Origin: an uncultured Eubacteriales bacterium
GTDB taxonomy: Bacteria; Bacillota; Clostridia; Oscillospirales; QAKW01
Length of the DNA: 59,351 bases
Assembly: GCA_902492505.1 (NCBI GenBank)
Contig: CABULU010000004.1
Coordinates: 1-59,351, forward strand
Direction of reading: 5' to 3'
Position 1 is the first letter of the stretch, and every line of letters begins with the position of its first letter. Below, in pieces: positions 37,369 through 52,404 of this stretch. The notes under the pieces are model-generated. The model was not told the DNA's origin and ran no database searches. It saw only the letters and a program-made list of their open reading frames with translations. The translations under genes and the position numbers were made by a program.

Positions 37369-39177
37369 TTAATCTGTATAATATGCTGCTTGTGCACTCC
37401 ACAACTCACTATATTTACCATTGATGTCTCCAAGGAGTTTGCTATGGTTTCCTCTTTGAATAAGTTGTCCATTGTCAAAAACTAGAATATCATCGCAAAA
37501 ACGGCATGACGATAGGCGATGACTGATATAGATGGCTGTCTTATCTTTTACTATCGCATTAAAATTAGTGTATACATCATATTCTGCAATAGGATCGAGG
37601 GCGGATGTTGGTTCATCAAGAATAATGAATGGTGAATTTTTGTAAATTGCACGAGCTAATGCGATTTTTTGGGCTTCACCTCCTGAAACTTCTACACCAG
37701 CTACATCAAAGTCTTTATACAAATAAGTTTTCAGACCATTAGGCATTTTCGAAAGACGCTCTGTAAATCCTGATTGTTCAAGTGCATTTGAAACCTTGTC
37801 TACATCATAATCTGCATCAGCAGCAATATTTTCCCCTAGTGAAAACGAGAAAAGTTTGAAGTCTTGAAATACAACCGAGAAAAGAGACAAATATTCATAG
37901 TAGTTATATTCCTTTATATTTAGTCCGTTGAGCAAAATCTCCCCTTCTGTGGGATCGTATAAACGACACAACAGTTTAATAAATGTCGTTTTTCCAGAAC
38001 CATTTATGCCCACAATCGCAAGGCGTTTACCAGTTCTAAACTTTATATTAATATTATGCAAAGCATAATTTTTTGCCCCGGGATATTTAAACGAAACATT
38101 TTTGAATTCTATGTCATACTCTGTCATATTATTTTTTATAGAAATCGATCCTTGACACATTTTCTGTGGAATATCAAAATATGCGAGATAATCCTTAATA
38201 AATGGAGTGTTATACTTTATATCTGCAAACACATTAAAATAACTTGTAATACATCCAATTAAAGTCTCCACAAATCCCACATATTTTATAATGCTTCCTA
38301 TACCAAACACACCGATTATAGCATAAGTGCAAACGAAAATGTAAACAACCGCTTGCAAAAATATACCTGTAATTAACAGAGGAATATTGATAACATAATT
38401 TTTAGTAGCCATCATACGAAAAGCCTTTTTATGAAGATCAAAATTCTTATATTTGATTTTCATAATCAGCCTATCTTGATGATATAAACGGATATCTTTA
38501 CCCATGTTGTAGCAATCGATAGCCTCGTCTATACGGTTTTCATCTATCATAGTTTGAGAAACCTGTTGTGATAATGCTCCTATTTTCTTTTTAGTTTTAA
38601 ACGAATAAAAAACAGAAAAAATAATAAGGCTTACGATTAAGCACATAAATAATGCAATAAAATTTTTCTTCCCTGATGCAAATATTAATATAAACATTTC
38701 AACTCCGAGAATAAGTGCTAATACAGAGCTAATCGTAATATTTATTAACCTTTCAACTGATATTAATAATAATTTTTTTCCATGATTATTAATCTTTGCT
38801 GATTCGTTTATTTTTCTACGAAGTTGGCGAACTTTGGTGTTTTCAAGGTCTTCATAATCGAGCGTCAATGTTTTCTTGTTATAATAAGCCGCTTCGCGTT
38901 GGTTAAGTAGAACTTTTTTGTGTTCAAAAACACGCTTAAGAATACCGCTGATAATGGCAATAATAAAGTTTCCAAGTACTGTTATTAGTACAAGAATTAC
39001 CAGGTTATCTTTATTCCTTGTTTTGACGATTTCATTTATTATTTCGGCAGATAGATAAAGATTGAAATAAGGAGATACCTTTTCAAAAAATGATTTTAAA
39101 ATCAAAAATAAAAAATAAGACGGACAGAAGGAGTGAAGCAATTTTAAAGCTCGGATATTAGGATTGTTTTTACACAT
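37369..39177 (-). CDS. ABC exporter half-transporter (TMD-NBD), partner 2
   Basis: Walker A GINGSGKTT, signature VSGGEAQK, Walker B FIILDEPTS. The start at 39177 overlaps the upstream stop by 8 nt. Confidence 0.85.
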   Translation of the reverse strand: MCKNNPNIRALKLLHSFCPSYFLFLILKSFFEKVSPYFNLYLSAEIINEIVKTRNKDNLVILVLITVLGNFIIAIISGILKRVFEHKKVLLNQREAAYYNKKTLTLDYEDLENTKVRQLRRKINESAKINNHGKKLLLISVERLINITISSVLALILGVEMFILIFASGKKNFIALFMCLIVSLIIFSVFYSFKTKKKIGALSQQVSQTMIDENRIDEAIDCYNMGKDIRLYHQDRLIMKIKYKNFDLHKKAFRMMATKNYVINIPLLITGIFLQAVVYIFVCTYAIIGVFGIGSIIKYVGFVETLIGCITSYFNVFADIKYNTPFIKDYLAYFDIPQKMCQGSISIKNNMTEYDIEFKNVSFKYPGAKNYALHNINIKFRTGKRLAIVGINGSGKTTFIKLLCRLYDPTEGEILLNGLNIKEYNYYEYLSLFSVVFQDFKLFSFSLGENIAADADYDVDKVSNALEQSGFTERLSKMPNGLKTYLYKDFDVAGVEVSGGEAQKIALARAIYKNSPFIILDEPTSALDPIAEYDVYTNFNAIVKDKTAIYISHRLSSCRFCDDILVFDNGQLIQRGNHSKLLGDINGKYSELWSAQAAYYTD

Positions 39178-40975
39178 TTTTTGTCTTTTCCTTATAGTAA
39201 CGACTTTGCAGTTCAAACATATGAAAATACTTTCCACCTTGTTTCATTAGTTCATTGTGAGAACCACATTCTACAATTTCACCGTTTTCCATATATACAA
39301 TTCTATCACAAAAACGTGTAGAAGCAAGTCGGTGAGAAATATAAATTGAAGTTTTATCTTTTGTAAGTTCGTTGTATTTCATATAAAGCTGATTCTCTGC
39401 TATCGGATCGAGTGACGCAGTTGGTTCATCAAGTACAAAAACCGGTGCATCTTTATAAAGTGCGCGGGCAAGCATCAATTTTTGAGTTTCTCCGCCTGAC
39501 ATTTCGATGGAATCATCAAAAACCCCCTTCATAAGTCTTGAGTCAATACCATTTGGTAAGGCTTTCACTTTATCCAATAGTCCAGCCTGTCGAAGCGCTC
39601 TCATCACCTTATCCAGGTCAATTTGCTTTTCAGATGACGAAACAAATTCTGCTATTGTGACAGGAAGCAGATAGATATCTTGAAATACAACAGAAAAAAG
39701 AGAGTAATACTCTTCAATGTTATAGTCAACGATAGGGTGTCTGTTTAATTTGATTTCACCATCAGACGGATAATACAAACCACATATTAATTTCACGAGG
39801 GTTGTTTTCCCAGCACCGTTTTCGCCGACTATGGCGAGTTTTTCTCCTTTATTTATTGATAAATTAATATTTTTTAGTGCATACTTTTCCCCATCATTCG
39901 TATAATATTTAAAAGATATATTATTTAGTTCAATATCTACAGGAAGTTCTTGGATTGTTGGAAGAGAACAACCTTTTCCATGATTGTATTTCTCTTTGAT
40001 TTCAAAATATTCTCTGTAATAGTTTATTTTGATGCTCTTGTGAACGATATCATTCACTCTATTCCCAATACCATTCAACCAAGAGGAAAATCCAGTTACT
40101 ACTCCAAAATAGAACACAAAATCACCAGCGCTAATCTCGTTATTAAATATCATTGAAATTAGTACCGCATATGCTACTCCGTTTCGTATCAACGTCAAGA
40201 ATGCATTCATACAGGTTCCTATGAGAGTATGTGCACTAACTTTTTTTGTCCACTCAAAACGTTCATTTTGAAATTCTGTTAACATATTTGAAAACCAATC
40301 AATCATATTGAAAACACGAATATCTTTTGCATGATTGAATTTCTGAGAAAAGCCCTGCAAATATCTAATCTTGCGGTCTATTGATACCCAATTATCCTTG
40401 TTTTTCTCAATATAATTTCTCTGCCACTGAGTAATTAAATAAGAAACAAAAGCTGATAAAAAAAGCAACATCAAAATCCAATGCGAAATGAATGTGATAA
40501 TTAATCCATATGTAAGGATACCAAATAAACTGATAAAAAGTTCTAATAACGATTGCCAAATAAACTCCGGGGCACATTGTCCCGAACAAGCGTCATTAAT
40601 TGCATGTTGATATTTTATAAGTAATGCTGGATTATCAACATTTGAAAAATCTGTGCGCATATATTTTTCGTTAATCGCATTTTGGTAAAGAATCGAAAGT
40701 GAGTATCGTCTCATTTGCAGTCTATTATTGCAGAAACTATTAGCCAAAGTAACTATTAAAAGTGCACCAAAATAAATACTATTGATTAGCACAATATTCT
40801 CAATGCTCTGTTTCGATTCAATAGAATCAATTAGTAATTTAGGATAATAGGTATTTGCTATGGGCATAAGTACCGCAAGGAGAATTGTAGGAATAAAAAA
40901 TAGGTAAAATGTTTTATCCCATTTCCAAATATTTTTTAAAGCATACCCTATGTTTTTAATAACATTCTTTTTCAT
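39170..40975 (-). CDS. ABC exporter half-transporter (TMD-NBD), partner 1
   Basis: Walker A GENGAGKTT, signature MSGGETQK, Walker B VFVLDEPTA. There is no N-terminal C39 peptidase domain. Confidence 0.85.
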   Translation of the reverse strand: MKKNVIKNIGYALKNIWKWDKTFYLFFIPTILLAVLMPIANTYYPKLLIDSIESKQSIENIVLINSIYFGALLIVTLANSFCNNRLQMRRYSLSILYQNAINEKYMRTDFSNVDNPALLIKYQHAINDACSGQCAPEFIWQSLLELFISLFGILTYGLIITFISHWILMLLFLSAFVSYLITQWQRNYIEKNKDNWVSIDRKIRYLQGFSQKFNHAKDIRVFNMIDWFSNMLTEFQNERFEWTKKVSAHTLIGTCMNAFLTLIRNGVAYAVLISMIFNNEISAGDFVFYFGVVTGFSSWLNGIGNRVNDIVHKSIKINYYREYFEIKEKYNHGKGCSLPTIQELPVDIELNNISFKYYTNDGEKYALKNINLSINKGEKLAIVGENGAGKTTLVKLICGLYYPSDGEIKLNRHPIVDYNIEEYYSLFSVVFQDIYLLPVTIAEFVSSSEKQIDLDKVMRALRQAGLLDKVKALPNGIDSRLMKGVFDDSIEMSGGETQKLMLARALYKDAPVFVLDEPTASLDPIAENQLYMKYNELTKDKTSIYISHRLASTRFCDRIVYMENGEIVECGSHNELMKQGGKYFHMFELQSRYYKEKTKNV

Positions 40976-40998: not shown

Positions 40999-42819
40999 TT
41001 AACTAAAATATTTAATAATCTGTAAATAAAGATTTTCCATATCATCCGAATCACCCAAAATATAAACCGGCCGCTTATATAATTTTGTGAATTCACTCTT
41101 TCCCCAATTTTTTCTATCATTATCAATAGGTAATAAAACATTAGAACTATATTTTTCATCATGATCCATAGGAAAAACCGCAAGTGCTATCACATCACAG
41201 TCAGCACAGGATTCAATATATTTGATTGTTCTTTCTATGTACTCATTTTCATCAAATATATTTACACACAAAACTACTGCATCTGGCTGTATAGAAAGTA
41301 GAAATTCTGTTTGCGAAAAAGTATAGTTGTAAATGTTGCCAAAATCATAGGTAACAGTCCCAGATTGACAACCAGCAAGAATAATATCGGTATTCTTGCT
41401 AGAAATATCGTTTATAAGCGTATTCATATAGCTTATGGTGTTTTGTCGAAATATATTTGTTTTTGAATGATAACCAAAATGAAAGCAACCATCCATTCCA
41501 AATAGCCAAGCAGATGGTTCCGAACCAATCTGCCCTAGTTTATAATTATCCCTGAGGAATTTTTCTCTTAAAGTAAGCTGCAAAGTGAACTTTCCTTGCT
41601 TTGATGTCGTTCCAAAAATCCCTAGCATTGGAACCCATGGCCTGTAAAGAAGTCCAAATGGAATAGGAAAAACATCATCCAAATGAGATTTGGGATAATA
41701 TACCTTTTCCGGCGATAAGTTATGAATCTGAATGTATTCACCAATATCATCAAAACTATATATGTATTTCCCATTATTATACGCTTGTAAAATCAAATTT
41801 TCAACAAAGTGGCTGTCATTCAATAATCGGACAAGTTCATCTGTATGTCCCAAGATGAGCGTGTCAAACGAGTCCCAATCAATACATTCGATATTTTTAA
41901 TTATGAAATCCAAATTGTTGTTATCAATATTAAGTAGATTGTTAACCGAAGCATTAACTTTTGCACTATATTTGACATCATATACATCAACAATATTTAC
42001 ATGCAGTAATCGATGAAATCGAATTAAGCTGTGCATTTCTTTATTAAAGGGAAATATTGCCGCTTTATTATATTTCTCTAACGGAGGATTAGAACTAGAA
42101 CCCTTTAGACACCGAAAATAATGTCTCTTTTTTGCTAAGCTTGATAAATAGTCCATAGCGCTAACCATATTAATTTCTAATCCTGTATTAAGATAATGAG
42201 ACAGAATTCCAGATACATGAGCACAAGCGTAACTATTCCCTTGAGTAAATATGAAATTTGAATCTGTCCAATGAATTCGTTGTAAACCGCCTTTTGCGCA
42301 TACATTTACAATAGGATGGTTGGTTGTTTCAATATCCGTCTTTCTAATACAATCTGTACCTGATACAACACCAATAACATCTTCAAGCGCAGCTGGATAA
42401 GATACAGATTCTAGGTTATCAAAAGCTGAAACAATTACACACCCTCGCTCATTTAACTTTTTACAAATTAAATTCATTTGATTGTATCGTGTAGATATAT
42501 TAATCCCCAAACTCACATTAATTAACTTGCAATTAATATTGTTATAAATATAATCTAGGGCAAATAATAGCAATGACTCATCAATACTAAGGTTTTGTGT
42601 ATCGAATAACTTAATAAAATAAACGTCTGTGGTTTTATTATGAGAACGTATAATATTATAAATAGCTGTTCCATGCCCCACATCATCTTGAATATTATTA
42701 TTTACATAAATATTTCCATCAGATTTTGTAAACAAATGAATCCCGTTATATTTTTCATTTTTAGATGACACTATTCCGGAATCGATTATTACAATATCAC
42801 AACTGATTTTTTTTGGCAT
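40999..42819 (-). CDS. Fusion protein: subtilisin-like S8 peptidase domain + peptide-maturation-system domain with a deviant P-loop
   Basis: S8 triad motifs IIDSGI, GHGTA and GNSYACAHVSG. The C-terminal half carries FGTTSKQGKFTLQL...GQIGSEPS. GGGGGA RBS before the ATG at 42819. Confidence 0.75.
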   Translation of the reverse strand: MPKKISCDIVIIDSGIVSSKNEKYNGIHLFTKSDGNIYVNNNIQDDVGHGTAIYNIIRSHNKTTDVYFIKLFDTQNLSIDESLLLFALDYIYNNINCKLINVSLGINISTRYNQMNLICKKLNERGCVIVSAFDNLESVSYPAALEDVIGVVSGTDCIRKTDIETTNHPIVNVCAKGGLQRIHWTDSNFIFTQGNSYACAHVSGILSHYLNTGLEINMVSAMDYLSSLAKKRHYFRCLKGSSSNPPLEKYNKAAIFPFNKEMHSLIRFHRLLHVNIVDVYDVKYSAKVNASVNNLLNIDNNNLDFIIKNIECIDWDSFDTLILGHTDELVRLLNDSHFVENLILQAYNNGKYIYSFDDIGEYIQIHNLSPEKVYYPKSHLDDVFPIPFGLLYRPWVPMLGIFGTTSKQGKFTLQLTLREKFLRDNYKLGQIGSEPSAWLFGMDGCFHFGYHSKTNIFRQNTISYMNTLINDISSKNTDIILAGCQSGTVTYDFGNIYNYTFSQTEFLLSIQPDAVVLCVNIFDENEYIERTIKYIESCADCDVIALAVFPMDHDEKYSSNVLLPIDNDRKNWGKSEFTKLYKRPVYILGDSDDMENLYLQIIKYFS

Positions 42820-42888
42820 AACATCCCCCACAATATCATAAATGCACGTCACATTCGCAATGTTTTTTATTTTATAAATCTGTACTAC

Positions 42889-43044
42889 TTAGCACTTTTC
42901 TTTATCGTCGTTACATACATCATATGTACCACTGCAAGTTCCAAAAGTTCCTCCGCACTCACCAAAGGTGCCTAATAACTGGAAAGATTGCAATTGTACA
43001 GTTGAATACTTTATAGTTTTTTTTGTTGGTTTTTTTAATATCAT
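42889..43044 (-). CDS. RiPP precursor peptide A2 (51 aa)
   Basis: MILKKPTKKTIKYSTVQLQSFQLLGTFGECGGTFGTCSGTYDVCNDDKEKC. GAGGT RBS 8 nt upstream. Starts 13 nt after the A1 stop. Confidence 0.72.
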   Translation of the reverse strand: MILKKPTKKTIKYSTVQLQSFQLLGTFGECGGTFGTCSGTYDVCNDDKEKC

Positions 43045-43057
43045 AATTACTACCTCA

Positions 43058-43216
43058 CTAACATCTTGTGAAATTACCAGGGCAATTGACAAAATCGCCC
43101 GTGCAATGAAAATATTTGCCTGTGCACTCACCAAATACTCCCAGAAGATTAAAAGACATCATAGAAAGTTTTCCATATTTATCTACCTTCTTGAGAGGTT
43201 TTTTTAATTTAGGCAT
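43058..43216 (-). CDS. RiPP precursor peptide A1 (52 aa)
   Basis: MPKLKKPLKKVDKYGKLSMMSFNLLGVFGECTGKYFHCTGDFVNCPGNFTRC. AGGAG RBS. Leader and Cys spacing are shared with A2. Confidence 0.72.
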   Translation of the reverse strand: MPKLKKPLKKVDKYGKLSMMSFNLLGVFGECTGKYFHCTGDFVNCPGNFTRC

Positions 43217-43259: not shown

Positions 43260-43511
43260 TCACTTTGTTTCATTCACCAATGAATCTATAAGGTGGACGA
43301 ACCCATTAAAAGAATTTAAAACTTCTATACGAAGATATTCATCTGGTATTTCAATATTTAATCGCCCTTCAATCGATACAATTAAAGAGATAAAAGTAAT
43401 GGAATCAATCCCAATATTTAAAAGATCAATATCTTCTGCGGTGGCATCAATAATCACTCCGAGATTTTCCATTTCTTCAATTAATATATTCCTAATATTT
43501 AATTCTTTCAT
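43260..43511 (-). CDS. Acyl-carrier-protein-like protein of the peptide maturation system
   Basis: 83 aa, acidic four-helix pattern with an ACP-type serine motif NIGIDSITFISL. Overlaps the rSAM stop by 20 nt. Confidence 0.72.
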   Translation of the reverse strand: MKELNIRNILIEEMENLGVIIDATAEDIDLLNIGIDSITFISLIVSIEGRLNIEIPDEYLRIEVLNSFNGFVHLIDSLVNETK

Positions 43512-44838
43512 TTGGATTCTCCTCTCTTTGTATAATAGCTTTTTTATACAGCAAAAGTAATTTTTCCATATAAATCGGTTTGGGACACGATCTTATGCCA
43601 TTATGCAAAATGTTTTTTTTAGGACATGCACCTTGAAAACACAAAACACTGAATGGACAAACCTCACATTTTTCACTATTCTTTTGATATGCTAGTAGCC
43701 ATTTTGACTCCTTTTCTTTATCAATATGCCATCCTGAATCATCTAAACGGCCAATGGCGGTCTCGGCACATGCAGTATCGCACTTTGATATAATTCCATC
43801 AGTGCTAATTGTATATTTGTACTTTCTTACAGCATTACACGTCAAACCACCGAAATATAAAGATACAAAATTATGTAACGAAAATGCAGTTGGATGTGAA
43901 AAAAGTGTATCATAAATTTTTTCCATTGCCGGTGGTGTCAATAATTCTGTACGAATCGTTTCAACTCTATCTCCTCCCCAATCATCTGCAAGACGTAAAA
44001 ACAAAGAAAAACGCGGATCTTTTCCAAATTCTTTTTCATAAAAAGAGAGATACTTAGTCAGGTTATCGAGAATAGATTTTGTGAGATTAGTTCTTATACA
44101 TACGTTTAAGTGGCGAAATTTTACTTTATGCCTTAAATATCTTAGGTTTTCGATTATTATATCAAATGTTGGTTCCCCATCCGCAAGTATGCGTTGATTG
44201 TCATGAGTATTGCTTAGGCCGTCGAGTGTTATATAATAACTATACACCTTTAATTTAAGCAAATCTTGTATGTTTTCGGGGGTTAAATAATATCCGTTCG
44301 TTGTAATCCCTGCCATATATGTCTTTCTTGCTCGTTTACATATTTCAATAATTTCCTGCGACATATGGGTTATAACATCCATGCCCATTAGTGGTTCTCC
44401 TCCAAACCAACTAATATATATACCAGAATATTTGTGGATAGTGTTGCGTATAAACTCGATAACTCCATTTTGTGTCGTCAAGCTCATTTTTTGTGTTTTA
44501 AAATCAAGAAAACAGTATTTACATCTAAAATTGCAATCGTTAGTTACATGAATAACTAATTGTAATTTATTACTGTAAATATAGTCTAATTGCAATAAGG
44601 AACGTTCTTTTTGTTCATCATATTCATATGGTATCAAAAAGCCTTTTTCAATCAGCGATTTGATAATAGGTGTGTGATCAACATCTTCAACACTAGACGC
44701 ATTTAGCAGCAACTTCACTTCATCTACATCACTCCCTGAAACAATATGAAAAGATTTAATGCCAAGCTTAAAATTAACAAGCAACAAATCTTGATTGTCA
44801 TTGGTGTAAAAATTAAATATTGACGGTTTATAACGCAT
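43492..44838 (-). CDS. Radical SAM / SPASM-domain peptide maturase
   Basis: CNFRCKYC (CxxxCxxC), SPASM-type CNAVRKYKYTISTDGIISKC (C-x14-G-x4-C) and CEVCPFSVLCFQGAC. The roughly 90-aa N-terminal extension is a candidate RRE. Confidence 0.9.
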   Translation of the reverse strand: MRYKPSIFNFYTNDNQDLLLVNFKLGIKSFHIVSGSDVDEVKLLLNASSVEDVDHTPIIKSLIEKGFLIPYEYDEQKERSLLQLDYIYSNKLQLVIHVTNDCNFRCKYCFLDFKTQKMSLTTQNGVIEFIRNTIHKYSGIYISWFGGEPLMGMDVITHMSQEIIEICKRARKTYMAGITTNGYYLTPENIQDLLKLKVYSYYITLDGLSNTHDNQRILADGEPTFDIIIENLRYLRHKVKFRHLNVCIRTNLTKSILDNLTKYLSFYEKEFGKDPRFSLFLRLADDWGGDRVETIRTELLTPPAMEKIYDTLFSHPTAFSLHNFVSLYFGGLTCNAVRKYKYTISTDGIISKCDTACAETAIGRLDDSGWHIDKEKESKWLLAYQKNSEKCEVCPFSVLCFQGACPKKNILHNGIRSCPKPIYMEKLLLLYKKAIIQREENPNERIKY

Positions 44839-45383: not shown

Positions 45384-45412
45384 TTGACAAAATATTTAAT
45401 CTTGTGTAGAAT
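45384..45412 (+). promoter_or_regulatory. Candidate sigma-A promoter for the LytTR regulator/kinase genes
   Basis: TTGACA (45384-45389), 17-nt spacer, TAGAAT (45407-45412). Confidence 0.4.
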
Positions 45413-45440
45413 TAAAAAAGAATATGTAAAAGGAGTTTCC

Positions 45441-46148
45441 ATGAAAATTGCAGTTTGTGATGACTCATTTGAATTTCGCAAAGAGTTATTGGATAGAATA
45501 CAACAATCAATACCTATGTCAGAAGAAATTACTTTTTATGAGTTTTCATCATCAGAAGAACTTCTTGAATCTTATGATGATGAAATTCGATATGATATTA
45601 TTTTTTTAGATGTTGAAATGGCTGAAACTAGTGGTTTAGATGCAGGTATAAAAATTAGAACAATTGATAAAAAAGTAATTATTATTTTTGTTTCGAATTA
45701 TTCCAAATATGCAATCCCAGCATATGATTGTGAAGCATTTTATTTTGTTGTAAAACCCGTTGTGCAGAAAAAGTTTGAAAATGTTTTATCCAAAGCAATA
45801 GAAAAGTATAAATTAATTCATCAATATTATATTATAAAAAATAAATCTGGTATTCAAAAAATACCTGTAAAAGATATATTATTTATAGAAATTTATCGTA
45901 AGCATTTAATCTTTCATATGATTAACGGTAGATATGAAACGATCGGCAAGATTAGAGATGCTCTATGTCAGCTTTGTCAATACGGATTCTGTCAAGTTCA
46001 TCAGGGATATTTGGTCAATATGAATCATATTAAAGCTTTCGCAGGATACGACATAATTCTCGATAATGGGGAAAAGGTTATGATGAGTGTTAGAAAAAAA
46101 TCAGATGTACTAAGAATTTATGCTGATTATTTAGAAAGGACATTTTAA
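45441..46148 (+). CDS. agrA: LytTR-family response regulator (AgrA-like)
   Basis: Receiver domain (MKIAVCDD...IFLDVEM) plus a C-terminal LytTR domain (IPVKDILFIE...HQGYLVNMNHI). AAGGAG RBS. Confidence 0.85.
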   Translation: MKIAVCDDSFEFRKELLDRIQQSIPMSEEITFYEFSSSEELLESYDDEIRYDIIFLDVEMAETSGLDAGIKIRTIDKKVIIIFVSNYSKYAIPAYDCEAFYFVVKPVVQKKFENVLSKAIEKYKLIHQYYIIKNKSGIQKIPVKDILFIEIYRKHLIFHMINGRYETIGKIRDALCQLCQYGFCQVHQGYLVNMNHIKAFAGYDIILDNGEKVMMSVRKKSDVLRIYADYLERTF

Positions 46149-47446
46149 TGAATTTAAACCACATTGTTTTTTCAATATTTAACGGATTGTTATCTATATA
46201 TATAATTTGCTTTTTCTTTGGAACGTTTGTACCCAAAAAAGATTTTAAAAACAGAAATATACTGTTAATGCTCTTATCATTTGCTTTTGTGATTTCACTA
46301 ATTATTAATGCAAGTAAAGTGGTTAACTTTGTCATATTGTCATCATTAATATTGATTTTATCTTTCTTTTATGATACAAAGTGGCATAATCGGTTTTTTT
46401 TGAGCATCGCTAGTGTTCTTTTGTCTTCATTTTCAGAGTTAGTAGTTGCCATATTAAGTAGTTACATTTTAAAAGTTGATTTTCCAACATTAAAAACCGG
46501 GTATTATTTTCTCATAGGAATGTTATTATCTAAACTAGTAACATTTATTACAATTGCCATAATTAGATTAGGAAACCATTCTTTGCCTTTTAAAAAATTA
46601 GAAGGTGTATGGGCCTATATTATCTTATTACCTTTAACATCAATAATTTTTGTGTTTATGATTTCAGATTATATGTATACAATTGTTGATGATAAGGTCA
46701 AACAAACATTAACCATCGCCAGTGTTTTTTTGATTATAATAACAAACATACTTTTATTCTATGTTATTGATAAAATACGTGACTATTTTGTTTCTCAAAG
46801 TAATTTAGCTATAGCTAACGAACTTATTGAAAAACAAAAAATTACATATAAAAATTTATTTGATTCGCAAACTGAGATTAAGAAAATAAAACATGATTTA
46901 AAAAATGTCATGTATGGCATATTACATGAAATTGATACCAATAACATAGAAAAAGCCAAAAATTATATAAAACACAACTGTAATCTACTAGCCCCATCAA
47001 CTGTATCGTTTATTTCTGGAAATAGCATAATCGACACACTTATTTCTGCTAAAAACCAAGTGGCTAATGATTTAAATATTACATTGGATGTCGAAACAGA
47101 ACTGTCAACCCCAATATATTTGAATAGTATTGATTTTTCTGTTTTGTTTGGAAATGCAATTGATAATGCTATTGAAGCAACTCAGTCAGTAAAAACACAT
47201 GATAAAGTAATCAATATTACAATAATTACTAAAAATTCAAATTTACTTATTATTGTAAAGAATCCAGTGGACGCGAAAATTGATACACAGAATTTAGTGA
47301 CGACTAAAAAAGAGTTTGAACTACATGGTTTTGGAGTTTTACAAATGACGAATTTAGTTAAAAAATATGGTGGAGATATATTCTTCAAATGTGATGATAA
47401 ACAGTTTAAAACAACTATAATTCTTAACAACAAGGCAAACGAATAG
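46148..47446 (+). CDS. agrC: AgrC-like GHKL sensor histidine kinase
   Basis: About 6 N-terminal TM helices, H-box IKHDLKN, N-box FGNAIDNAIEA, G-box HGFGV. The start overlaps the regulator stop (TAATG). Confidence 0.8.
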   Translation: MNLNHIVFSIFNGLLSIYIICFFFGTFVPKKDFKNRNILLMLLSFAFVISLIINASKVVNFVILSSLILILSFFYDTKWHNRFFLSIASVLLSSFSELVVAILSSYILKVDFPTLKTGYYFLIGMLLSKLVTFITIAIIRLGNHSLPFKKLEGVWAYIILLPLTSIIFVFMISDYMYTIVDDKVKQTLTIASVFLIIITNILLFYVIDKIRDYFVSQSNLAIANELIEKQKITYKNLFDSQTEIKKIKHDLKNVMYGILHEIDTNNIEKAKNYIKHNCNLLAPSTVSFISGNSIIDTLISAKNQVANDLNITLDVETELSTPIYLNSIDFSVLFGNAIDNAIEATQSVKTHDKVINITIITKNSNLLIIVKNPVDAKIDTQNLVTTKKEFELHGFGVLQMTNLVKKYGGDIFFKCDDKQFKTTIILNNKANE

Positions 47447-47502
47447 GTCTTTAATTATTACACATAAGCATTTTATGTTGACATTTTCACTAAAAAATAT
47501 TA

Positions 47503-47536
47503 AAAAGGAGATACAATAATTTGTATCTCCTTTTTT
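47503..47536 (+). terminator. Strong hairpin plus T-run between the kinase gene and agrB (terminator or attenuator)
   Basis: Perfect 14-bp stem aaaaggagatacaa / ttgtatctcctttt, 4-nt loop, T-run, ending 10 nt before the agrB start. Confidence 0.65.
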
Positions 47537-47546
47537 GGTGAGTGTT

Positions 47547-48134
47547 ATGTATGAATTTTTGGCAAAAAATATAACAAAATTTTTTATTGATAAAAAAATC
47601 ATAGATAAATCAAAACATGAAATATACGAATATGGTTTTGAATTAATATTTTCTCAGACTGTTTATATTTTAATTATGATTTTTATATCAGTTTTACTTA
47701 ATTGTATTATTGAGTCAATCGTTTTTTTTCTTGGTTTTTATTTTTACAGAAAATTCTCGGGTGGATATCATGCCAAAACATATATTGGTTGTCATTTACT
47801 TTTTAGTATAAATCAATTGATTTTTATCTTAATTGAAAATATAGTCCTAGTTGAATATAGATATCTAATATCCATTTTAACTTTACTTTTCACTGCTATA
47901 ATTACTTACACCTGCTCCCCCATAGATCATCCCAATAAGCTTTTTACTGAAAAAGAATATTTTAGATATAAAAAATTAAGTAGGGCTTTTATTATTGTAC
48001 AGTTTCCGATTTCATTGTTGTTTTTACTACTCGATAAAAATAACATTCTTTACTTTTGTTTTTGTTTTGGCATATTTTCTGCAAGTATGTCATTATTATA
48101 TGCTTTCATAGAGAGGAGGTTAAAAAATGGATAA
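47547..48134 (+). CDS. agrB: AgrB-family autoinducer-processing membrane peptidase
   Basis: FYRKFSGGYHAKTYIGCHLLF has His and Cys 7 residues apart, as in the catalytic H77/C84 of S. aureus AgrB. Polytopic, about 195 aa. Confidence 0.85.
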   Translation: MYEFLAKNITKFFIDKKIIDKSKHEIYEYGFELIFSQTVYILIMIFISVLLNCIIESIVFFLGFYFYRKFSGGYHAKTYIGCHLLFSINQLIFILIENIVLVEYRYLISILTLLFTAIITYTCSPIDHPNKLFTEKEYFRYKKLSRAFIIVQFPISLLFLLLDKNNILYFCFCFGIFSASMSLLYAFIERRLKNG

Positions 48135-48276
48135 ACTCAAGAAGTTTTTAATTAAATACGGTACAGCTCTTTCTGCTTTTGCCCTTTTCATTGCCGGTTC
48201 ATCAATGGATTCTGCTTGCTTTATTTTCTATCATCAACCCAAAGTACCTACTGCAATGGATAGTTTCAAAAGATAA
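48127..48276 (+). CDS. agrD: AgrD-like autoinducing peptide precursor (49 aa; absent from the ORF track)
   Basis: MDKLKKFLIKYGTALSAFALFIAGSSMDSACFIFYHQPKVPTAMDSFKR. The ATG overlaps the agrB stop. The SAC-x4-HQP.VP layout resembles clostridial AgrD. Confidence 0.7.
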   Translation: MDKLKKFLIKYGTALSAFALFIAGSSMDSACFIFYHQPKVPTAMDSFKR

Positions 48277-49130: not shown

Positions 49131-49559
49131 TTAATGAGTTTCCTTTATGCTAATTTTATCGGATGCATGATCTTCTTCCAATTGGTTTCTGATGTATTCT
49201 TCAATAATTCTTTTGTTTTTTCCCTATCGTATCTACATAATATCCTCTACACCAGAAGTTTCTACTTCCATACTTGTATTTCAAATTTGCATGTCGATCA
49301 AAGATCGTTAGCGAACTTTTTTCCTTGAGAAATCCCATATATTGTGCTACACTTAAATACGGTGGTATCGTTACAAGCATGTGTATATGATCTATACATG
49401 TTTCTGCTTCAATAATTTCCACACCTTTTGTTCGCACAATTTTCTTAATATTTCTCCTGTGTCTTTTCGCAATCGTCCATATATTTCTTTTCTCCGATAT
49501 TTCGGTGCAAATACTATATGATATTGGCATCGGTAATTTGAATGGGCTATGCGTTTCAT
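49131..49559 (-). pseudogene. tnpA: IS200/IS605-family Y1 (HUH) transposase tnpA, with two frameshifts
   Basis: Three frame segments: MKRIAHSNYRCQYHIVFAPKYRRKEIYGRLRKD..., then GVEIIEAETCIDHIHMLVTIPP...FWCRGYYVDTIG, then EYIRNQLEEDHASDKISIKETH. The shifts lie in A-runs near 49425 and 49205. Confidence 0.78.
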
Positions 49560-49574
49560 TTGTTTAAAACCTCC

Positions 49575-50615
49575 ATGATTTTCTTCGCAGAAAATTTAAA
49601 TTTTGAGGCGGTAGACTTTTTTGATGTAAAATATCTTGGTAACGTCGGAAAAGAACTAACTGAATTTGGAATAAAAAACAAAATCAGCACAAAAACTATT
49701 AAAAATTTTGATAATATAAATTGGAATGATGATTTTGACACTTTTATTTTAGGTCATATCAAAAAAATTGAATTCATGCTACCACAATTGCATAATTACA
49801 CAAATAGAATTATAAGTAAATGTTTAAAATATAAAAAAAATCTATTTTTATTTGAAAAAGATTTTATTACACCTGAAATAGAACGTGAATTTGAGAAGAA
49901 TAATGTATGTTTATATTATCCTGAGATAACTCAAGCAAACATACCTATAGATACAGTAGGCAAACTATATATGTCATGTATACCTTCTATTGCAGTATTT
50001 GGTACAAGTTCAAAGCAAGGTAAATTTACATTACAACTAAATTTACGCAAAGAATTTATAAAAAATAATTATAAAGTGGGTCAAATTGGAACTGAACCTT
50101 CATCGCTACTTTTTGGTTTTGATTACGTATATCCACTTGGATATAATTCTCATAATTCATTAACTGGACATGATTCTATATTGGCACTAAATAACTTTTT
50201 AATGAAAATTGAAACCGAAAAAGAACCAGACATTATTATAATAGGTTCACAATCTCATACAGTACCTATAAACATAAATAACATTTCCAATATTCCTATT
50301 TATCAACAGGATATTTTATATGCTATAAAACCAGATATATGTTTACTTTGTGTAAATATATCTGATGAAATAGAATATATAGAAAAAAATATAATGTTTT
50401 TAGAATCAATAGCCAATAGTAAGGTTTTGGCTTTAATAATCTCACCAATAAAAAACATATATCGATGGACTACGATTGGAAATGAAATAATTTCAAATTC
50501 AAAAGAAAGTATAAGAAAATTCAAAAGAAAGTGTTCGAATTTGAAAATACCAATATATGAGATTAATGAATGCCATGATTTATTTGAACACATAATAAAT
50601 TATTTAAGTGAGTGA
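49575..50615 (+). CDS. Free-standing paralog of the peptide-maturation-system domain (no S8 domain); 5' end abuts the IS200 remnant
   Basis: VFGTSSKQGKFTLQLNLRKEFIKNNYKVGQIGTEPS and flanking blocks align with residues from about 280 onward of the 40999-42819 fusion. The true start is unclear (49542 or 49575). Confidence 0.6.
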   Translation: MIFFAENLNFEAVDFFDVKYLGNVGKELTEFGIKNKISTKTIKNFDNINWNDDFDTFILGHIKKIEFMLPQLHNYTNRIISKCLKYKKNLFLFEKDFITPEIEREFEKNNVCLYYPEITQANIPIDTVGKLYMSCIPSIAVFGTSSKQGKFTLQLNLRKEFIKNNYKVGQIGTEPSSLLFGFDYVYPLGYNSHNSLTGHDSILALNNFLMKIETEKEPDIIIIGSQSHTVPININNISNIPIYQQDILYAIKPDICLLCVNISDEIEYIEKNIMFLESIANSKVLALIISPIKNIYRWTTIGNEIISNSKESIRKFKRKCSNLKIPIYEINECHDLFEHIINYLSE

Positions 50616-50619
50616 TTTT

Positions 50620-52404
50620 ATGAAAAATGCATTTAAAAACAACTTTAAACTTTTAAAGTATTTATGGGATTTTACGCCTAGTTTAATTATTTGGAAAATA
50701 GCGCTAATGCTTTCCAATGTATTTATTAATGTGATCTTTAATGTGATTTTTATTCAATATTTAGTTGAATCTATGGAGCGTGCCACAGATTTTAAACATG
50801 TTATACTAGTCATTTTATTCATCGCTATTCTAATGCTTATCAGTTCAATTTTAGATAGTTTTTTTGAGCGTTATGTTGAACCGATAGCTAAAAAAAAGAT
50901 ACATAAGGGAATGCATAGCATTATATTTAATAAAGTTGTACAAATAGACCTAGAACAATACGATAATGCTGATTTTTACAATGACTATATATGGGCTTTA
51001 AATGAAATTGACAACAAAACTATTAAATCTTTTTATATACTTATAGATTTTGTCAAAGCATTACTAACAGCATTTTCAATGATGGTTATTGCTACAACAC
51101 TAGATAGATTCATGTTAATATTTGTGATCATACCGATAATGTCAAGCGTTATTTCAAGTACATTAATAAATAAAGTGAATTACAAATACTCAGAAGAATC
51201 AAATTCAATAAATAGGAAAAAATCCTATTCGAAAAGAGTATTTTACTTGCAACAATATGCCAAGGAATTAAGAACGTCAAAAATCAAAAAACTTATTTTC
51301 AACAATTTTAATGACTCTGTAGAAAAAGATGTGACAATATGGAAAAAATATTGGAAAAAACTCATGGGACTTTCTATCATACAGAAGAATTCACAAACAT
51401 TATTTGGTTTTATTCTAATGTCAATATATTTATCTTTTAGAATAATTGTACAAAAAGCTTTTGCAGCTAGTACGTTTATAGCTTTATTTAATGCAGTTAA
51501 TAACTTGATTCATTCTATTAGTTCAATGTTTTCTGTTGTTCCTAAGATATATCAAAATGGTTTATATGCCGAAAAAATATTTAATATAATTGATTATAAT
51601 AGTAATATTGAAGTTGATTCTGGAGAAAAAGCAGGTGATTTTAAATATATTGAATTTAAAAACGTGGATTTTAAATATCCAAAGTCCAAAGACAATGTAT
51701 TAAACAATATAAACTTTTCAATACACAAAGGCGAAAAAGTTGCATTTGTTGGAATAAATGGTGTCGGTAAAACAACGTTAGTTAATCTTATTATGGGATT
51801 ATATAAAGTGAAATCTGGAGAAATATTGTACAATGGCAAAACAATTGACCAATTAAACATATATGACTATAGAGATAAATTCGCTACAATTTTTCAGGAT
51901 TTTCAAATATATGCATTGACACTTGGCGAAAACATTTTGATGAAAAAAACAACAAGTGAATCCGACGAAATAATATCAGAAGTTTTGTCAGAAAGTTATT
52001 TACCTGAATTAAAAGATAAAATACACAGAAATTTAACCAAGGAATTTGATAATGATGGATTGATTTTATCTGGTGGTCAAAAACAAAAAGTTGCTATTGC
52101 AAGGGCACTAATTAAAAAATCGAAAATAATAATTATGGATGAGCCCTCAAGTTCATTAGATCCAATTTCAGAAAATTCAATAATGAATACAATAATATCA
52201 AATTATAATAATGAAACGATTATACTTATTTCTCATAGATTATCTAATATAAAAAATGTAGATCGTATTTATTTTTTACATAATGGATCCATAACAGAAG
52301 AAGGGAGCCACGAACAATTAATGCAAAAGAAAGGGCGATACTATAAGATGTATAATATTCAAGCGCAAAAATATAGTGAAGGAGATAAATATAATGAAGA
52401 ATAA
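50620..52404 (+). CDS. ABC exporter half-transporter (TMD-NBD), third copy
   Basis: Walker A GINGVGKTT, signature LSGGQKQK, Walker B IIIMDEPSS. Confidence 0.85.
   Translation: MKNAFKNNFKLLKYLWDFTPSLIIWKIALMLSNVFINVIFNVIFIQYLVESMERATDFKHVILVILFIAILMLISSILDSFFERYVEPIAKKKIHKGMHSIIFNKVVQIDLEQYDNADFYNDYIWALNEIDNKTIKSFYILIDFVKALLTAFSMMVIATTLDRFMLIFVIIPIMSSVISSTLINKVNYKYSEESNSINRKKSYSKRVFYLQQYAKELRTSKIKKLIFNNFNDSVEKDVTIWKKYWKKLMGLSIIQKNSQTLFGFILMSIYLSFRIIVQKAFAASTFIALFNAVNNLIHSISSMFSVVPKIYQNGLYAEKIFNIIDYNSNIEVDSGEKAGDFKYIEFKNVDFKYPKSKDNVLNNINFSIHKGEKVAFVGINGVGKTTLVNLIMGLYKVKSGEILYNGKTIDQLNIYDYRDKFATIFQDFQIYALTLGENILMKKTTSESDEIISEVLSESYLPELKDKIHRNLTKEFDNDGLILSGGQKQKVAIARALIKKSKIIIMDEPSSSLDPISENSIMNTIISNYNNETIILISHRLSNIKNVDRIYFLHNGSITEEGSHEQLMQKKGRYYKMYNIQAQKYSEGDKYNEE

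What the first reader, a model, noticed from the sequence alone, without database searches (positions are those of the whole stretch)
42889..43216. Two tandem precursor peptides with a strict C-x6-C-x6-C-x6-C heptad core ending in a C-terminal Cys
The two peptides are A1 = MPKLKKPLKKVDKYGKLSMMSFNLLGVFGECTGKYFHCTGDFVNCPGNFTRC and A2 = MILKKPTKKTIKYSTVQLQSFQLLGTFGECGGTFGTCSGTYDVCNDDKEKC. Both share a basic leader (LKKP-KK---KY------SF-LLG-FGEC). Both have exactly four Cys spaced by six residues, with the last Cys as the C-terminal residue. Most heptads follow C-x-G-x-(F/Y)-x-x, and the segment before the first Cys (G[T/V]FGE) has the same register, so the core reads as about four 7-residue repeats. 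Such regularity suggests an iterative enzyme installing one crosslink per heptad (Cys sulfur to a fixed-offset acceptor, sactionine- or ranthionine-like), giving a ladder of equal-sized rings. The long ORF-track versions (81 and 62 aa) overlap each other. The internal ATGs chosen here have good RBSs and leave a 13-nt gap.
Basis: seen in the sequence. Interest (0 to 1): 0.82.

Follow-up and report, generated by a model that had tools for sequence, protein, structure and literature searches.

The report
Paired cysteine-ladder RiPP precursor peptide genes
Two small neighbouring genes in an uncultured gut Clostridia genome encode precursors of a rare, unnamed family of ribosomal peptides with a repeated aromatic-x-x-cysteine unit, which the radical SAM enzyme next to them most likely staples into a row of small sulfur-bridged rings. 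It is a good natural-product lead rather than a new principle.

Summary
A1 (43058-43216, minus strand, 52 aa) and A2 (42889-43044, minus strand, 51 aa) are real and conserved. Both carry C-x6-C-x6-C-x6-C ending in a C-terminal Cys, have good ribosome-binding sites and are separated by 13 nt.

They sit in a conserved cassette: a CteB-like radical SAM/SPASM enzyme, an acyl-carrier-like protein, A1, A2, a subtilase fused to a DUF1611/DgcN-like domain, and two ABC exporters. An agr-type quorum-sensing module lies beside it.

I recovered 47 distinct homologous cores in two conserved types, of which A1 is type 1 and A2 is type 2. No curated family matches them. Of 146 Cys-Cys gaps, 136 are six residues long. 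In all 10 longer gaps the aromatic residue stays at -3 of the downstream Cys. The true unit is therefore [F/Y]-x-x-C, the same register as NxxcA.

The most likely mechanism is one rSAM-made thioether per unit. The chemistry is inferred, not shown. More distant cassettes share the KLxKP leader but have other Cys spacings.

The nearest described system is the CcpM/TIGR04066/TIGR04069 cassette, known only from sequence analysis, but no membership cut-off is met. Verdict: a new variant of a known kind (Cys-rich rSAM RiPPs); interest is moderate.

The parts
43058..43216 (-). Precursor A1 (type 1), 52 aa. Leader MPKLKKPLKKVDKYGKLSMMSFNLLG; core VFGEC-TGKYFHC-TGDFVNC-PGNFTRC, i.e. four [F/Y]-x-x-C units with a C-terminal Cys.
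   Evidence: RBS AAAGGAG. The exact 52-aa product is called in a public assembly. The core shows 11 synonymous versus 1 non-synonymous codon differences against L081.
42889..43044 (-). Precursor A2 (type 2), 51 aa. Core TFGEC-GGTFGTC-SGTYDVC-NDDKEKC. The last unit is the conserved CNDDKxxC motif of type 2.
   Evidence: RBS GAGGT; 13 nt after the A1 stop. The exact 51-aa product is in public gene calls. There are 23 distinct type-2 cores. The order type 1 then type 2 is kept in 4 of 6 lineages.
43492..44838 (-). Radical SAM/SPASM peptide maturase, 448 aa. N-terminal RRE-like domain, CxxxCxxC at C102/C106/C109, and seven invariant SPASM Cys (C334, C353, C391, C394, C400, C405, C418).
   Evidence: Pfam PF04055. 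Best NCBIfam hits are TIGR04463 (155 bits) and Clo7bot (153 bits), both far below their cut-offs. Invariant Cys come from alignment A1. The AF2 model has pLDDT 88, and its closest fold is CteB 5WHY/5WGG at TM 0.67-0.71.
43260..43511 (-). Acyl-carrier-like protein, 83 aa, with the phosphopantetheine-site motif GIDS (Ser37).
   Evidence: PF00550 at E = 8.7e-8. ACP models in NCBIfam hit below their cut-offs. The DS motif is kept in 21 of 22 homologues from related cassettes. Co-occurrence is shown.
40999..42852 (-). Fusion protein. N-terminal subtilase (S8, QhpE-like; the Asp, His and Ser motifs DSG, HGT and GNSYA are present), the presumed leader peptidase. C-terminal TIGR04066/DUF1611-like two-domain module with a deviant P-loop, GTTSKQGK. 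The likely true start is the ATG at 42819 (606 aa).
   Evidence: NCBIfam QhpE 106.6 bits, TIGR04066 82.5 bits. Pfam S8 and DUF1611. The AF2 model of residues 256-617 has pLDDT 91. Foldseek top hits are the DUF1611 proteins 2G0T and 2OBN and the N-acetyltransferase DgcN 7XRJ. A 606-aa form is in public calls. More than 800 homologues were found, mostly the same fusion.
39170..40975 (-). ABC half-transporter (TMD-NBD, no C39 peptidase domain detected), a presumed exporter subunit.
   Evidence: Conserved downstream in L083, L085, L087 and L090.
37369..39237 (-). Second ABC half-transporter, presumed partner of the first. The start is probably the internal ATG near 39177.
   Evidence: Paired ABC genes are seen in homologous loci.
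45384..48276 (+). Divergently oriented agr-type quorum-sensing module: LytTR response regulator (45384-46148), GHKL histidine kinase (46148-47446), AgrB (47535-48134) and an AgrD-like 49-aa peptide (48127-48276, ...DSACFIFYHQPKVP...). It is a probable regulator of the cassette.
   Evidence: Pfam LytTR/Response_reg, HATPase_c_5 and AgrB. The same module lies beside the cassette in L083/L084, and AgrB hits occur in several related loci. The regulatory link itself is an inference.

Best explanation
**What it is.** A1 and A2 are the two structural genes of a quorum-sensing-linked RiPP cassette in an uncultured Clostridia bacterium with 38% GC.

**Proposed pathway.**
1. Each precursor has a basic leader (M-x-K-L-K-K-P-x-K-K ... 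L-L-G), which the N-terminal RRE-like domain of the adjacent CteB-like radical SAM/SPASM enzyme presumably binds.
2. The core is a row of [F/Y]-x-x-C units.
3. The enzyme most likely acts iteratively, one SAM cleavage per unit. It abstracts a hydrogen atom from an acceptor residue and joins that carbon to the Cys sulfur held on an auxiliary Fe-S cluster.
4. My preferred acceptor is the aromatic residue three positions upstream of each Cys, the register of N-x-x-C in NxxcA. This would give four consecutive small rings in A1 and three or four in A2.
5. The subtilase domain then removes the leader, and the two ABC half-transporters export the products. Because type 1 and type 2 are kept as a pair, they may act together.
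6. The co-conserved carrier protein and the DUF1611/DgcN-like domain fused to the protease add a further step. This is possibly a phosphopantetheine-dependent acyl transfer or carboxylate activation. Its nature is unknown.

**Shown:** the genes, their conservation, the cassette, the folds and the motif register.

**Inferred:** thioether chemistry, the acceptor position, the order of steps, agr control and biological activity.
For: **Real coding genes**
- RBS, spacing and public gene calls.
- Purifying selection on the A1 core, 11 synonymous versus 1 non-synonymous.
- 47 distinct homologous cores.

**Link to the rSAM**
- The order rSAM, ACP, peptide(s), S8-DUF1611, ABC, ABC is conserved in all loci with flank.

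**Thioether-type enzyme**
- Full SPASM Cys set.
- Nearest sequence and structure matches are CteB.
- The best family hits are all Cys-peptide maturases: TIGR04463, Clo7bot, CefB, PapB, geopeptide and CcpM.
- Across the wider clade, Cys is the one feature common to all the otherwise very different cores, apart from an aromatic-plus-Glu motif near the leader-core junction.

**Register**
- An aromatic residue sits at -3 of the first Cys in 47 of 47 cores, and at -3 of 126 of the 146 later Cys. The other 20 are the invariant Lys of type 2.
- All 10 gaps of 7 or 8 residues keep the aromatic at -3 of the downstream Cys.
- F or Y is found at only 9 of 744 other inter-Cys positions.
- 41 of 47 cores end in Cys. 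This fits upstream acceptors and would leave a downstream-acceptor model without a partner for the last Cys.

**Precedents**
- NxxcA Cys23-Asn20 beta-thioether and freyrasin's six repeated Cys-Asp thioethers (PMC8326336, PMC9389541).

**Leader protease and export**
- The S8 domain is closest to QhpE, the leader protease of the QhpD thioether system.
Against: - No chemistry is observable here. rSAM/SPASM enzymes with the same fold also make C-C, C-O and cyclophane links or epimerise (hits to SuiB, ChlB and EpeE).
- Scores to every named thioether family are far below the cut-offs.
- No thioether to a Phe or Tyr side chain at -3 is known to me.
- The first aromatic residue may simply be part of a leader-core junction motif (aromatic plus Glu) that the wider clade shares at varying distance from the first Cys.
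- A2's last unit has Lys rather than an aromatic residue, and two relatives lack the last Cys. The ladder is therefore not uniform.
- Gly at +2 is also well conserved (85 of the 121 positions counted) and could be the acceptor.
- The roles of the ACP and the DUF1611 domain are unexplained by a simple thioether model.
Confidence: 0.6

Rival explanations
1. The enzyme makes thioethers but in the opposite register. Each Cys donates to a residue downstream of it: a sactionine to the conserved Gly at +2, or a link to the residue at +3 or +4. This is how the first reader framed C-x-G-x-[F/Y]. The aromatic residues would then serve only as recognition or packing elements.
For: - Gly at +2 is found in 85 of 121 units.
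- Cys-to-Gly sactionines, and downstream acceptors in general (sactipeptides; PapB with CX3D), are the commoner precedent (PMC8326336, PMC10288494).
Against: - 41 of 47 cores end in Cys, which would have no acceptor.
- Type-2 peptides replace Gly(+2) by His or Asp.
- In all 10 longer gaps the aromatic residue moves with the downstream Cys, so +4 is not conserved.
- The aromatic residue before the first Cys would have no role.
Confidence: 0.15
2. The rSAM does not use the Cys sulfur. It builds carbon-carbon or cyclophane links at the aromatic residues, as in the triceptide-like aromatic-x-x units, or makes another modification. The Cys residues would later form disulfides or bind metal.
For: - The invariant residue of each unit, apart from Cys, is aromatic.
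- Repeated three-residue aromatic motifs are the substrates of cyclophane-forming rSAM/SPASM enzymes. The YhhB family scores 61 bits.
- An even number of Cys (4 or 6 in most members) would allow full disulfide pairing.
Against: - The best-scoring families and the closest structure are Cys-directed maturases.
- Distant cassettes with the same enzyme set have cores with Cys but no aromatic repeat, for example ENNCNCW, GVHCC and SGTGSC repeats.
- One member has 5 Cys (P0313) and two have 3 (P0189, P0193).
Confidence: 0.12
3. The peptides are plain disulfide-rich bacteriocins or signals. The rSAM, ACP and DUF1611 proteins act on another substrate, such as a carrier-bound small molecule, and the co-location is a matter of shared regulation only.
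For: - The conserved phosphopantetheine Ser on the ACP and the DgcN-like fold suggest small-molecule or acyl chemistry.
- No direct evidence ties the rSAM to the peptides.
Against: - The N-terminal RRE-like domain aligns with CteB's peptide-binding domain.
- The peptide genes sit inside the operon, between the ACP and the protease, in every lineage.
- Leader conservation tracks the enzyme set across very different cores.
Confidence: 0.07
4. These are chance ORFs or untranslated sequence.
For: None beyond their small size.
Against: - Expected chance count is 0.09.
- Orthologues are conserved, with a synonymous-biased substitution pattern.
- Ribosome-binding sites are present.
Confidence: 0.01

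Closest known systems
CcpM-type 'Cys-rich peptide' maturation cassette (NCBIfam/TIGRFAM TIGR04068 rSAM, TIGR04066, TIGR04069 ACP-related protein, subtilase, ABC). Reported in silico in Roseburia intestinalis (PMC4573289) and in the Paenibacillus polymyxa SacP23 locus (PMC10731318).
   Same: It has the same parts list: an rSAM/SPASM enzyme, a small ACP-like protein, a TIGR04066-like protein, an S8 protease, an ABC exporter and Cys-rich precursor(s). The chemistry is unsolved there as well.
   Different: - The rSAM scores 96.5 bits against a 500-bit cut-off.
- The TIGR04066 region scores 82.5 bits (fusion) and 91.8 bits (second copy) against a 200-bit cut-off.
- No TIGR04069 or precursor-model hit.
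- Here TIGR04066 is fused to the protease.
- The precursors form a separate family with a KLKKP leader and [F/Y]-x-x-C units.
NxxcA/NxxcB (Streptococcus orisratti ranthipeptide)
   Same: The acceptor lies three residues upstream of the donor Cys (N-x-x-C; Cys23-Asn20 beta-thioether), made by an rSAM/SPASM enzyme (PMC8326336, PMC9389541). The register I infer here is the same.
   Different: - NxxcA has a single unit with an Asn acceptor, under Rgg/SHP control, with no ACP or DUF1611.
- Here there are 4 to 6 units with Phe, Tyr or Lys at -3.
Freyrasin/PapB (ranthipeptide with six CX3D repeats)
   Same: One enzyme installs one thioether per short repeated motif, giving a row of equal small rings. 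This is the 'ladder' idea (PMC8326336, PMC9413430).
   Different: - The acceptor is Asp at +4, downstream of Cys.
- The PapB family scores 106.9 bits against a 340-bit cut-off.
- The accessory genes differ.
CteB/thermocellin (SCIFF ranthipeptide maturase, PDB 5WGG/5WHY)
   Same: It is the closest solved structure by sequence (73.7 bits) and by fold (TM 0.67-0.71 over the full length). The RRE + rSAM + SPASM architecture is the same.
   Different: - Only about 18% identity.
- The SCIFF maturase model TIGR03974 scores 74.6 bits against a 425-bit cut-off.
- The precursors are unrelated to SCIFF.
QhpD/QhpE/QhpF maturation of the quinohemoprotein amine dehydrogenase gamma subunit
   Same: An rSAM that makes Cys-Asp/Glu thioethers is paired with a subtilisin-like leader protease. 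From my own knowledge, an ABC exporter also belongs to it. The S8 domain's best family hit is QhpE.
   Different: - All scores are below the cut-offs (QhpE 106.6 against 165; QhpD 82.4 against 453).
- There are no dehydrogenase subunits.
- The product here is a free peptide.
TIGR04463, Clo7bot (TIGR04334) and Cys-every-fifth (CefB, NF038107) rSAM families
   Same: These are the best-scoring curated families. They are rSAM/SPASM maturases defined in silico, next to short Cys-rich and often periodically spaced peptides.
   Different: Scores of 155.5, 153.3 and 125.6 bits fall far short of cut-offs of 525, 600 and 600. Eight relatives also fail every cut-off. None of these families has published chemistry that I could find.

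Membership tests
rSAM-dependent thioether RiPPs (sactipeptides/ranthipeptides) | Ribosomal precursor with a leader and a Cys-bearing core, encoded beside the maturase | tested here: met
rSAM-dependent thioether RiPPs (sactipeptides/ranthipeptides) | rSAM enzyme with CxxxCxxC, a SPASM domain with auxiliary-cluster Cys, and an N-terminal RRE | tested here: met
   Invariant C102/C106/C109 plus seven SPASM Cys. Full-length fold match to CteB, including the N-terminal domain.
rSAM-dependent thioether RiPPs (sactipeptides/ranthipeptides) | Cys sulfur-to-carbon cross-links in the mature peptide (alpha carbon = sacti-, beta/gamma carbon = ranthi-) | not testable with these tools
   Needs MS/NMR of the modified peptide
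SCIFF ranthipeptides (TIGR03973/TIGR03974) | Maturase reaches the TIGR03974 cut-off; precursor matches the SCIFF model | tested here: not met
   74.6 bits against 425. The precursors hit no NCBIfam model even at E <= 10.
CcpM system (TIGR04068 with TIGR04066, TIGR04069 and TIGR04065) | rSAM reaches the TIGR04068 cut-off | tested here: not met
   96.5 bits against 500
CcpM system (TIGR04068 with TIGR04066, TIGR04069 and TIGR04065) | TIGR04066-family protein present | tested here: inconclusive
   Full-length homology (profile positions 1-359 of 361) but 82.5 bits (fusion) and 91.8 bits (second copy) against a 200-bit cut-off
CcpM system (TIGR04068 with TIGR04066, TIGR04069 and TIGR04065) | ACP-related protein of family TIGR04069 and a precursor of the matching peptide family | tested here: not met
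   The ACP-like protein hits only generic ACP models. The precursors have no hits.
CcpM system (TIGR04068 with TIGR04066, TIGR04069 and TIGR04065) | Gene set: rSAM + ACP-like + TIGR04066-like + subtilase + ABC | tested here: met
   compared with PMC4573289 and PMC10731318
TIGR04463 / Clo7bot TIGR04334 / CefB NF038107 / PapB NF047865 | Curated whole-protein score cut-off | tested here: not met
   155.5 against 525; 153.3 against 600; 125.6 against 600; 106.9 against 340. Eight relatives also fail.
QHNDH maturation (QhpD/QhpE) | QhpD and QhpE cut-offs reached; dehydrogenase subunit genes nearby | tested here: not met
   82.4 against 453 and 106.6 against 165. No such subunits appear among the window ORFs.
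DUF1611 / DgcN-like proteins | Two-domain DUF1611 fold with the GTxxxxGK P-loop | tested here: met
   AF2 pLDDT 91. Foldseek hits 2G0T, 2OBN and 7XRJ at E = 7e-13 to 6e-10, TM 0.55-0.68. Invariant G159, T160, S162, Q164, G165 and K166. The Pfam hit is below the gathering score.
Acyl carrier proteins | PP-binding domain with a conserved Asp-Ser attachment motif | tested here: met
   PF00550 32.7 bits against a 20.8-bit cut-off. DS kept in 21 of 22 homologues. Actual phosphopantetheinylation is not testable here.
agr-type quorum sensing | AgrB, an AgrD-like peptide, a GHKL kinase and a LytTR regulator together | tested here: met
   AgrD is assigned by position, size and the C-F-I-F-Y...QPKVP motif only (my own knowledge).

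The most novel reading that the evidence does not exclude
This cassette may make a peptide type not yet described. It would have a run of four-residue rings in which Cys sulfur is joined to the (benzylic) carbon of a Phe or Tyr three residues upstream. It would then be further processed by a carrier-protein-dependent step. The DgcN-like domain fused to the leader protease would catalyse that step, for example N-acylation of the newly exposed N-terminus or activation of the C-terminal Cys carboxylate. Such a step would be a new use of a lone ACP and of the DUF1611 fold in RiPP biosynthesis. It would extend to the 800 or more homologues of the DUF1611-like domain recovered, most of which are the same S8 fusion, and to the uncharacterised CcpM-type cassettes.
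Probability: 0.2. Interest if true: 0.8.

Novelty: new variant of a known kind. Interest (0 to 1): 0.55.

Why it matters
- **A defined but unmodelled family.**
  - An exhaustive profile search of 1.84 billion representative proteins found only 23 representatives, and I collected 47 distinct cores in all.
  - No Pfam or NCBIfam model covers the precursors or reaches its cut-off for the enzyme. The family would therefore be easy to miss in model-based annotation.
- **A directly testable structural prediction.** The comparative data give an aromatic-x-x-Cys unit and a -3 register, preserved through indels. If right, this adds aromatic residues to the acceptors used by thioether-forming rSAM enzymes.
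- **An unsolved accessory pair.**
  - The ACP and the DUF1611-like domain are shared with the long-known but chemically unsolved CcpM-type cassettes of gut Firmicutes.
  - Solving one member would explain a large group of gut-microbiome gene clusters.
- **A likely ecological role.** The conserved type-1/type-2 pair and the adjacent agr module suggest a density-controlled two-peptide antimicrobial or signal in gut Clostridia.

Tried and rejected
- **Curated precursor families.** Pfam and NCBIfam gave nothing, even at E <= 10. The only hits were meaningless ones to TigB and FEA1.
- **Filing the rSAM or eight relatives under a named NCBIfam family.** All fall far below the cut-offs.
- **Literature.**
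  - 'Clo7bot' returned no papers.
  - OhkG/FlmE/CefB and DgcN returned only irrelevant acronym hits.
  - 'DUF1611' returned two unrelated papers.
  - Hudson 2019 and Haft & Basu 2011 are not held.
  - The supplement of PMC10288494 listing predicted precursors is not held. I therefore cannot exclude that this family appears in that dataset.
- **Metagenome contig scan.** It added only four close loci. Most relatives came from protein searches instead.
- **LytTR-type direct repeats in the 545-bp rSAM upstream region.** I found only one weak 30-nt pair (70% identity, 43-nt spacing) and two weak inverted repeats. This is not convincing, so agr control remains an inference from adjacency.
- **Terminator or attenuator between A2 and the protease gene.** None was predicted.
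- **The upstream-anchored heptad reading (C-x-G-x-F/Y).** Considered and rejected as the conserved unit because of the indel evidence.
- **Six weaker profile hits (E = 3.7e-7 to 3.2e-4).** Five were retrieved and are long translations of simple tandem repeats (CPGPWGE, CNNSFTV, CTDQYRQ and the like). They have no leader and are not family members.
Full report
**1. The observation**

The minus strand of 42889-43216 encodes the two peptides exactly as quoted.
- A1 occupies 43058-43216 (52 aa).
- A2 occupies 42889-43044 (51 aa; its ATG is at 43044).
- The A1 stop and the A2 ATG are 13 nt apart.
- Both starts have Shine-Dalgarno sequences at proper distance: AAAGGAG, 7 nt, ATG and GTGAGGT, 7 nt, ATG.
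- The longer ORF-track versions (62 aa; 81 aa from a TTG) exist and overlap. Public gene calls contain the exact 52-aa and 51-aa products and not the long ones.
- Each peptide has four Cys separated by six residues and ends in Cys.

About 0.09 such strings are expected in the six-frame translation of the whole window. Here two lie head to tail with homologous leaders.

Against the orthologous pair in a locus whose rSAM is 79% identical (L081), the A1 core differs at 11 synonymous and 1 non-synonymous codons. The leader differs at 4 and 8. These are translated genes, and the core is under stronger constraint than the leader.

**2. Context**

The peptides sit inside a minus-strand operon:
- an rSAM/SPASM enzyme (43492-44838);
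- an 83-aa acyl-carrier-like protein (43260-43511);
- A1 and A2;
- a 606/617-aa fusion of an S8 subtilase with a TIGR04066/DUF1611-like module (40999-42852);
- two ABC half-transporters (39170-40975 and 37369-39237).

Divergently upstream lies a complete agr-type module: a LytTR regulator, a GHKL kinase, AgrB and an AgrD-like peptide (45384-48276).

The host is an uncultured Clostridia bacterium. The window has 38% GC, and a housekeeping protein cluster carries that name.

**3. Relatives**

The rSAM has 659 homologues at E <= 1e-20, almost all unnamed metagenome proteins.

Six distinct lineages with 56-79% identity and enough flank keep the same gene order. One of them also has the agr module beside it. 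All carry the same kind of peptide.

A profile of the peptides found 38 database entries. An exhaustive HMMER search of 1.84 billion representative proteins found 23 family representatives and nothing else credible. Five of the six weaker hits were retrieved and are translations of simple tandem repeats.

In all I have 47 distinct cores. They fall into two types:
- Type 1 (24 cores, like A1) is (x-G-x-[Y/F]-x-x-C) repeated.
- Type 2 (23 cores, like A2) ends in a nearly invariant C-N-D-D-K-x-x-C.

The order type 1 then type 2 is kept in 4 of the 6 lineages. This suggests a two-peptide product.

**4. The repeat unit**
- Of 146 Cys-Cys gaps, 136 are six residues, 6 are seven and 4 are eight.
- 41 of 47 cores end in Cys.
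- The residue at -3 of the first Cys is Phe or Tyr in 47 of 47 cores.
- At -3 of the later Cys it is Phe or Tyr 126 times and Lys 20 times. All the Lys cases are the last unit of type 2.
- In all ten longer gaps the aromatic residue keeps its -3 distance to the downstream Cys and loses the +4 distance to the upstream Cys.
- Phe or Tyr occurs at only 9 of 744 other positions between Cys residues.

The conserved unit is therefore [F/Y]-x-x-C. The heptad is its usual, but not obligatory, period.

One caveat applies. More distant cassettes also carry an aromatic residue plus Glu near the leader-core junction, at varying distance from the first Cys. The first aromatic residue may therefore belong to a junction motif.

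**5. The enzymes**

*The rSAM.*
- It has the CxxxCxxC motif and seven invariant SPASM Cys.
- Its only significant solved relative by sequence is CteB.
- An AlphaFold model (pLDDT 88) matches CteB over its full length, including the N-terminal peptide-binding domain (TM 0.67-0.71). The next matches are anSME, SuiB, ChlB and SkfB.
- Its best curated-family hits are all maturases of Cys-containing peptides: TIGR04463, Clo7bot, CefB, PapB, geopeptide and CcpM.
- Every score is far below the curated cut-off, for this protein and for eight relatives.

*The carrier-like protein.* It passes the Pfam PP-binding threshold and keeps the Asp-Ser attachment motif in 21 of 22 homologues.

*The C-terminal module of the protease fusion.*
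- Its model has pLDDT 91.
- It matches the DUF1611 structures 2G0T and 2OBN and the N-acetyltransferase DgcN 7XRJ.
- It has an invariant GTxSxQGK loop.
- More than 800 homologues exist, mostly the same S8 fusion.

*The S8 part.* It has the catalytic motifs and is closest to QhpE, the leader protease of the QhpD thioether system.

**6. The wider clade**

Cassettes whose rSAM is 30-45% identical keep the ACP, the S8-DUF1611 fusion and the ABC genes. They come from Lachnospiraceae, Oscillospiraceae, a termite-gut spirochaete and a Paludibacteraceae MAG.

Their peptides share the M-K-K-L-x-K-P-x-K leader. Their cores range from two Cys (...SAENNCNCW...GVHCC) to eight, and include a C-x7-C repeat (SNSGTGSC).

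The heptad is thus specific to one clade. Cys is the one feature the cores share, apart from an aromatic-plus-Glu motif near the leader-core junction. This argues that the conserved chemistry is centred on Cys.

**7. Mechanism**

I commit to the following.
1. The rSAM binds the leader and works along the core. It makes one thioether per unit, from the Cys sulfur to a carbon of the residue at -3.
2. The S8 domain removes the leader.
3. The ABC pair exports the two products.
4. The agr module controls expression.

My probabilities are:
- genuine RiPP precursors of this cassette, about 0.9;
- Cys thioether chemistry, about 0.55;
- the -3 acceptor, about 0.3.

The precedents are NxxcA (Cys23-Asn20, the same register) and freyrasin (six repeated Cys-Asp rings) (PMC8326336, PMC9389541).

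The ACP/DUF1611 step is unexplained. The fold relation to an acetyl-CoA-dependent N-acetyltransferase and the conserved phosphopantetheine Ser make carrier-dependent acyl transfer or carboxylate activation the natural guess. That is inference only.

The rivals are downstream acceptors (for example Gly at +2), aromatic C-C or cyclophane chemistry with Cys left for disulfides, and an rSAM acting on something else. They are listed with their tests in the rival explanations.

**8. Comparison and novelty**

The parts list equals that of the CcpM-type cassette, which is known only in silico in Roseburia and in the Paenibacillus SacP23 locus (PMC4573289, PMC10731318). No membership threshold is met, however, and the precursors are a separate family with no model.

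It works like a ranthipeptide or sactipeptide system, but membership cannot be decided without chemistry.

I rate it a new variant of a known kind, and a solid genome-mining lead with a specific, testable structural prediction. It is not a new principle. I found no description of this family in the held literature. Two key papers and one supplementary dataset could not be read.

Noticed in passing
window 49542-52404 (+), with 49201-49559 (-): A second, stand-alone TIGR04066/DUF1611-like gene (357 aa, no S8 domain; 91.8 bits) is followed directly by a third ABC transporter. It lies next to a broken IS200-like Y1 transposase, which is split into two overlapping ORFs. No rSAM, ACP or leader-type peptide is nearby. 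It looks like a remnant or satellite of a second cassette.
   Followed up: partly
window 48127-48276 (+): An AgrD-like 49-aa ORF overlaps the end of agrB. It has a C-F-I-F-Y segment followed by QPKVP, as in clostridial autoinducer precursors. It has no Pfam hit.
   Followed up: partly
window 42819-42852 (-): The mechanical ORF for the S8 fusion starts at a GTG with no ribosome-binding site. The ATG at 42819 has a GGGGGA site, and a 606-aa form is what public gene calls hold. Similarly, the second ABC gene probably starts near 39177 rather than at the GTG at 39237.
   Followed up: partly
L004 7645-9910 (Spirochaetaceae MAG, termite gut): Seven tandem precursor genes share the leader (M-x-K-x-K-L-x-K-P-Q-S) but have very different Cys-rich cores. 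They lie next to a homologous rSAM/ACP/S8-DUF1611 cassette, which makes this a diversified precursor array.
   Followed up: no
L007 7701-7883 and L042 7698-7880 (Lachnospiraceae): The precursor has four C-x7-C repeats of S-N-S-G-T-G-S-C. This is a different period, without aromatic residues, in a cassette with the same accessory genes and an AgrB hit.
   Followed up: no
L092 2821-5758 and L095 49-296: These are minimal cores in the same superfamily: ...SAENNCNCW in three copies and ...KGVHCC in two copies. They would be the simplest substrates for working out the chemistry shared by the clade.
   Followed up: no
L081 9018-10843 versus L087: In L081 the S8-DUF1611 gene is called as two pieces (161 + 434 aa), and its S8 part scores lower than in the near-identical L087. 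This is a possible frameshift, pseudogene or assembly error in that contig.
   Followed up: no
P0189 and P0193 (type-2 relatives): Two type-2 peptides end at C-N-D-D-K-L or C-N-D-D-K-P and lack the final Cys. P0179, P0183, P0188 and P0320 carry one or more residues after the last Cys. The C-terminal Cys is therefore usual but not universal.
   Followed up: partly
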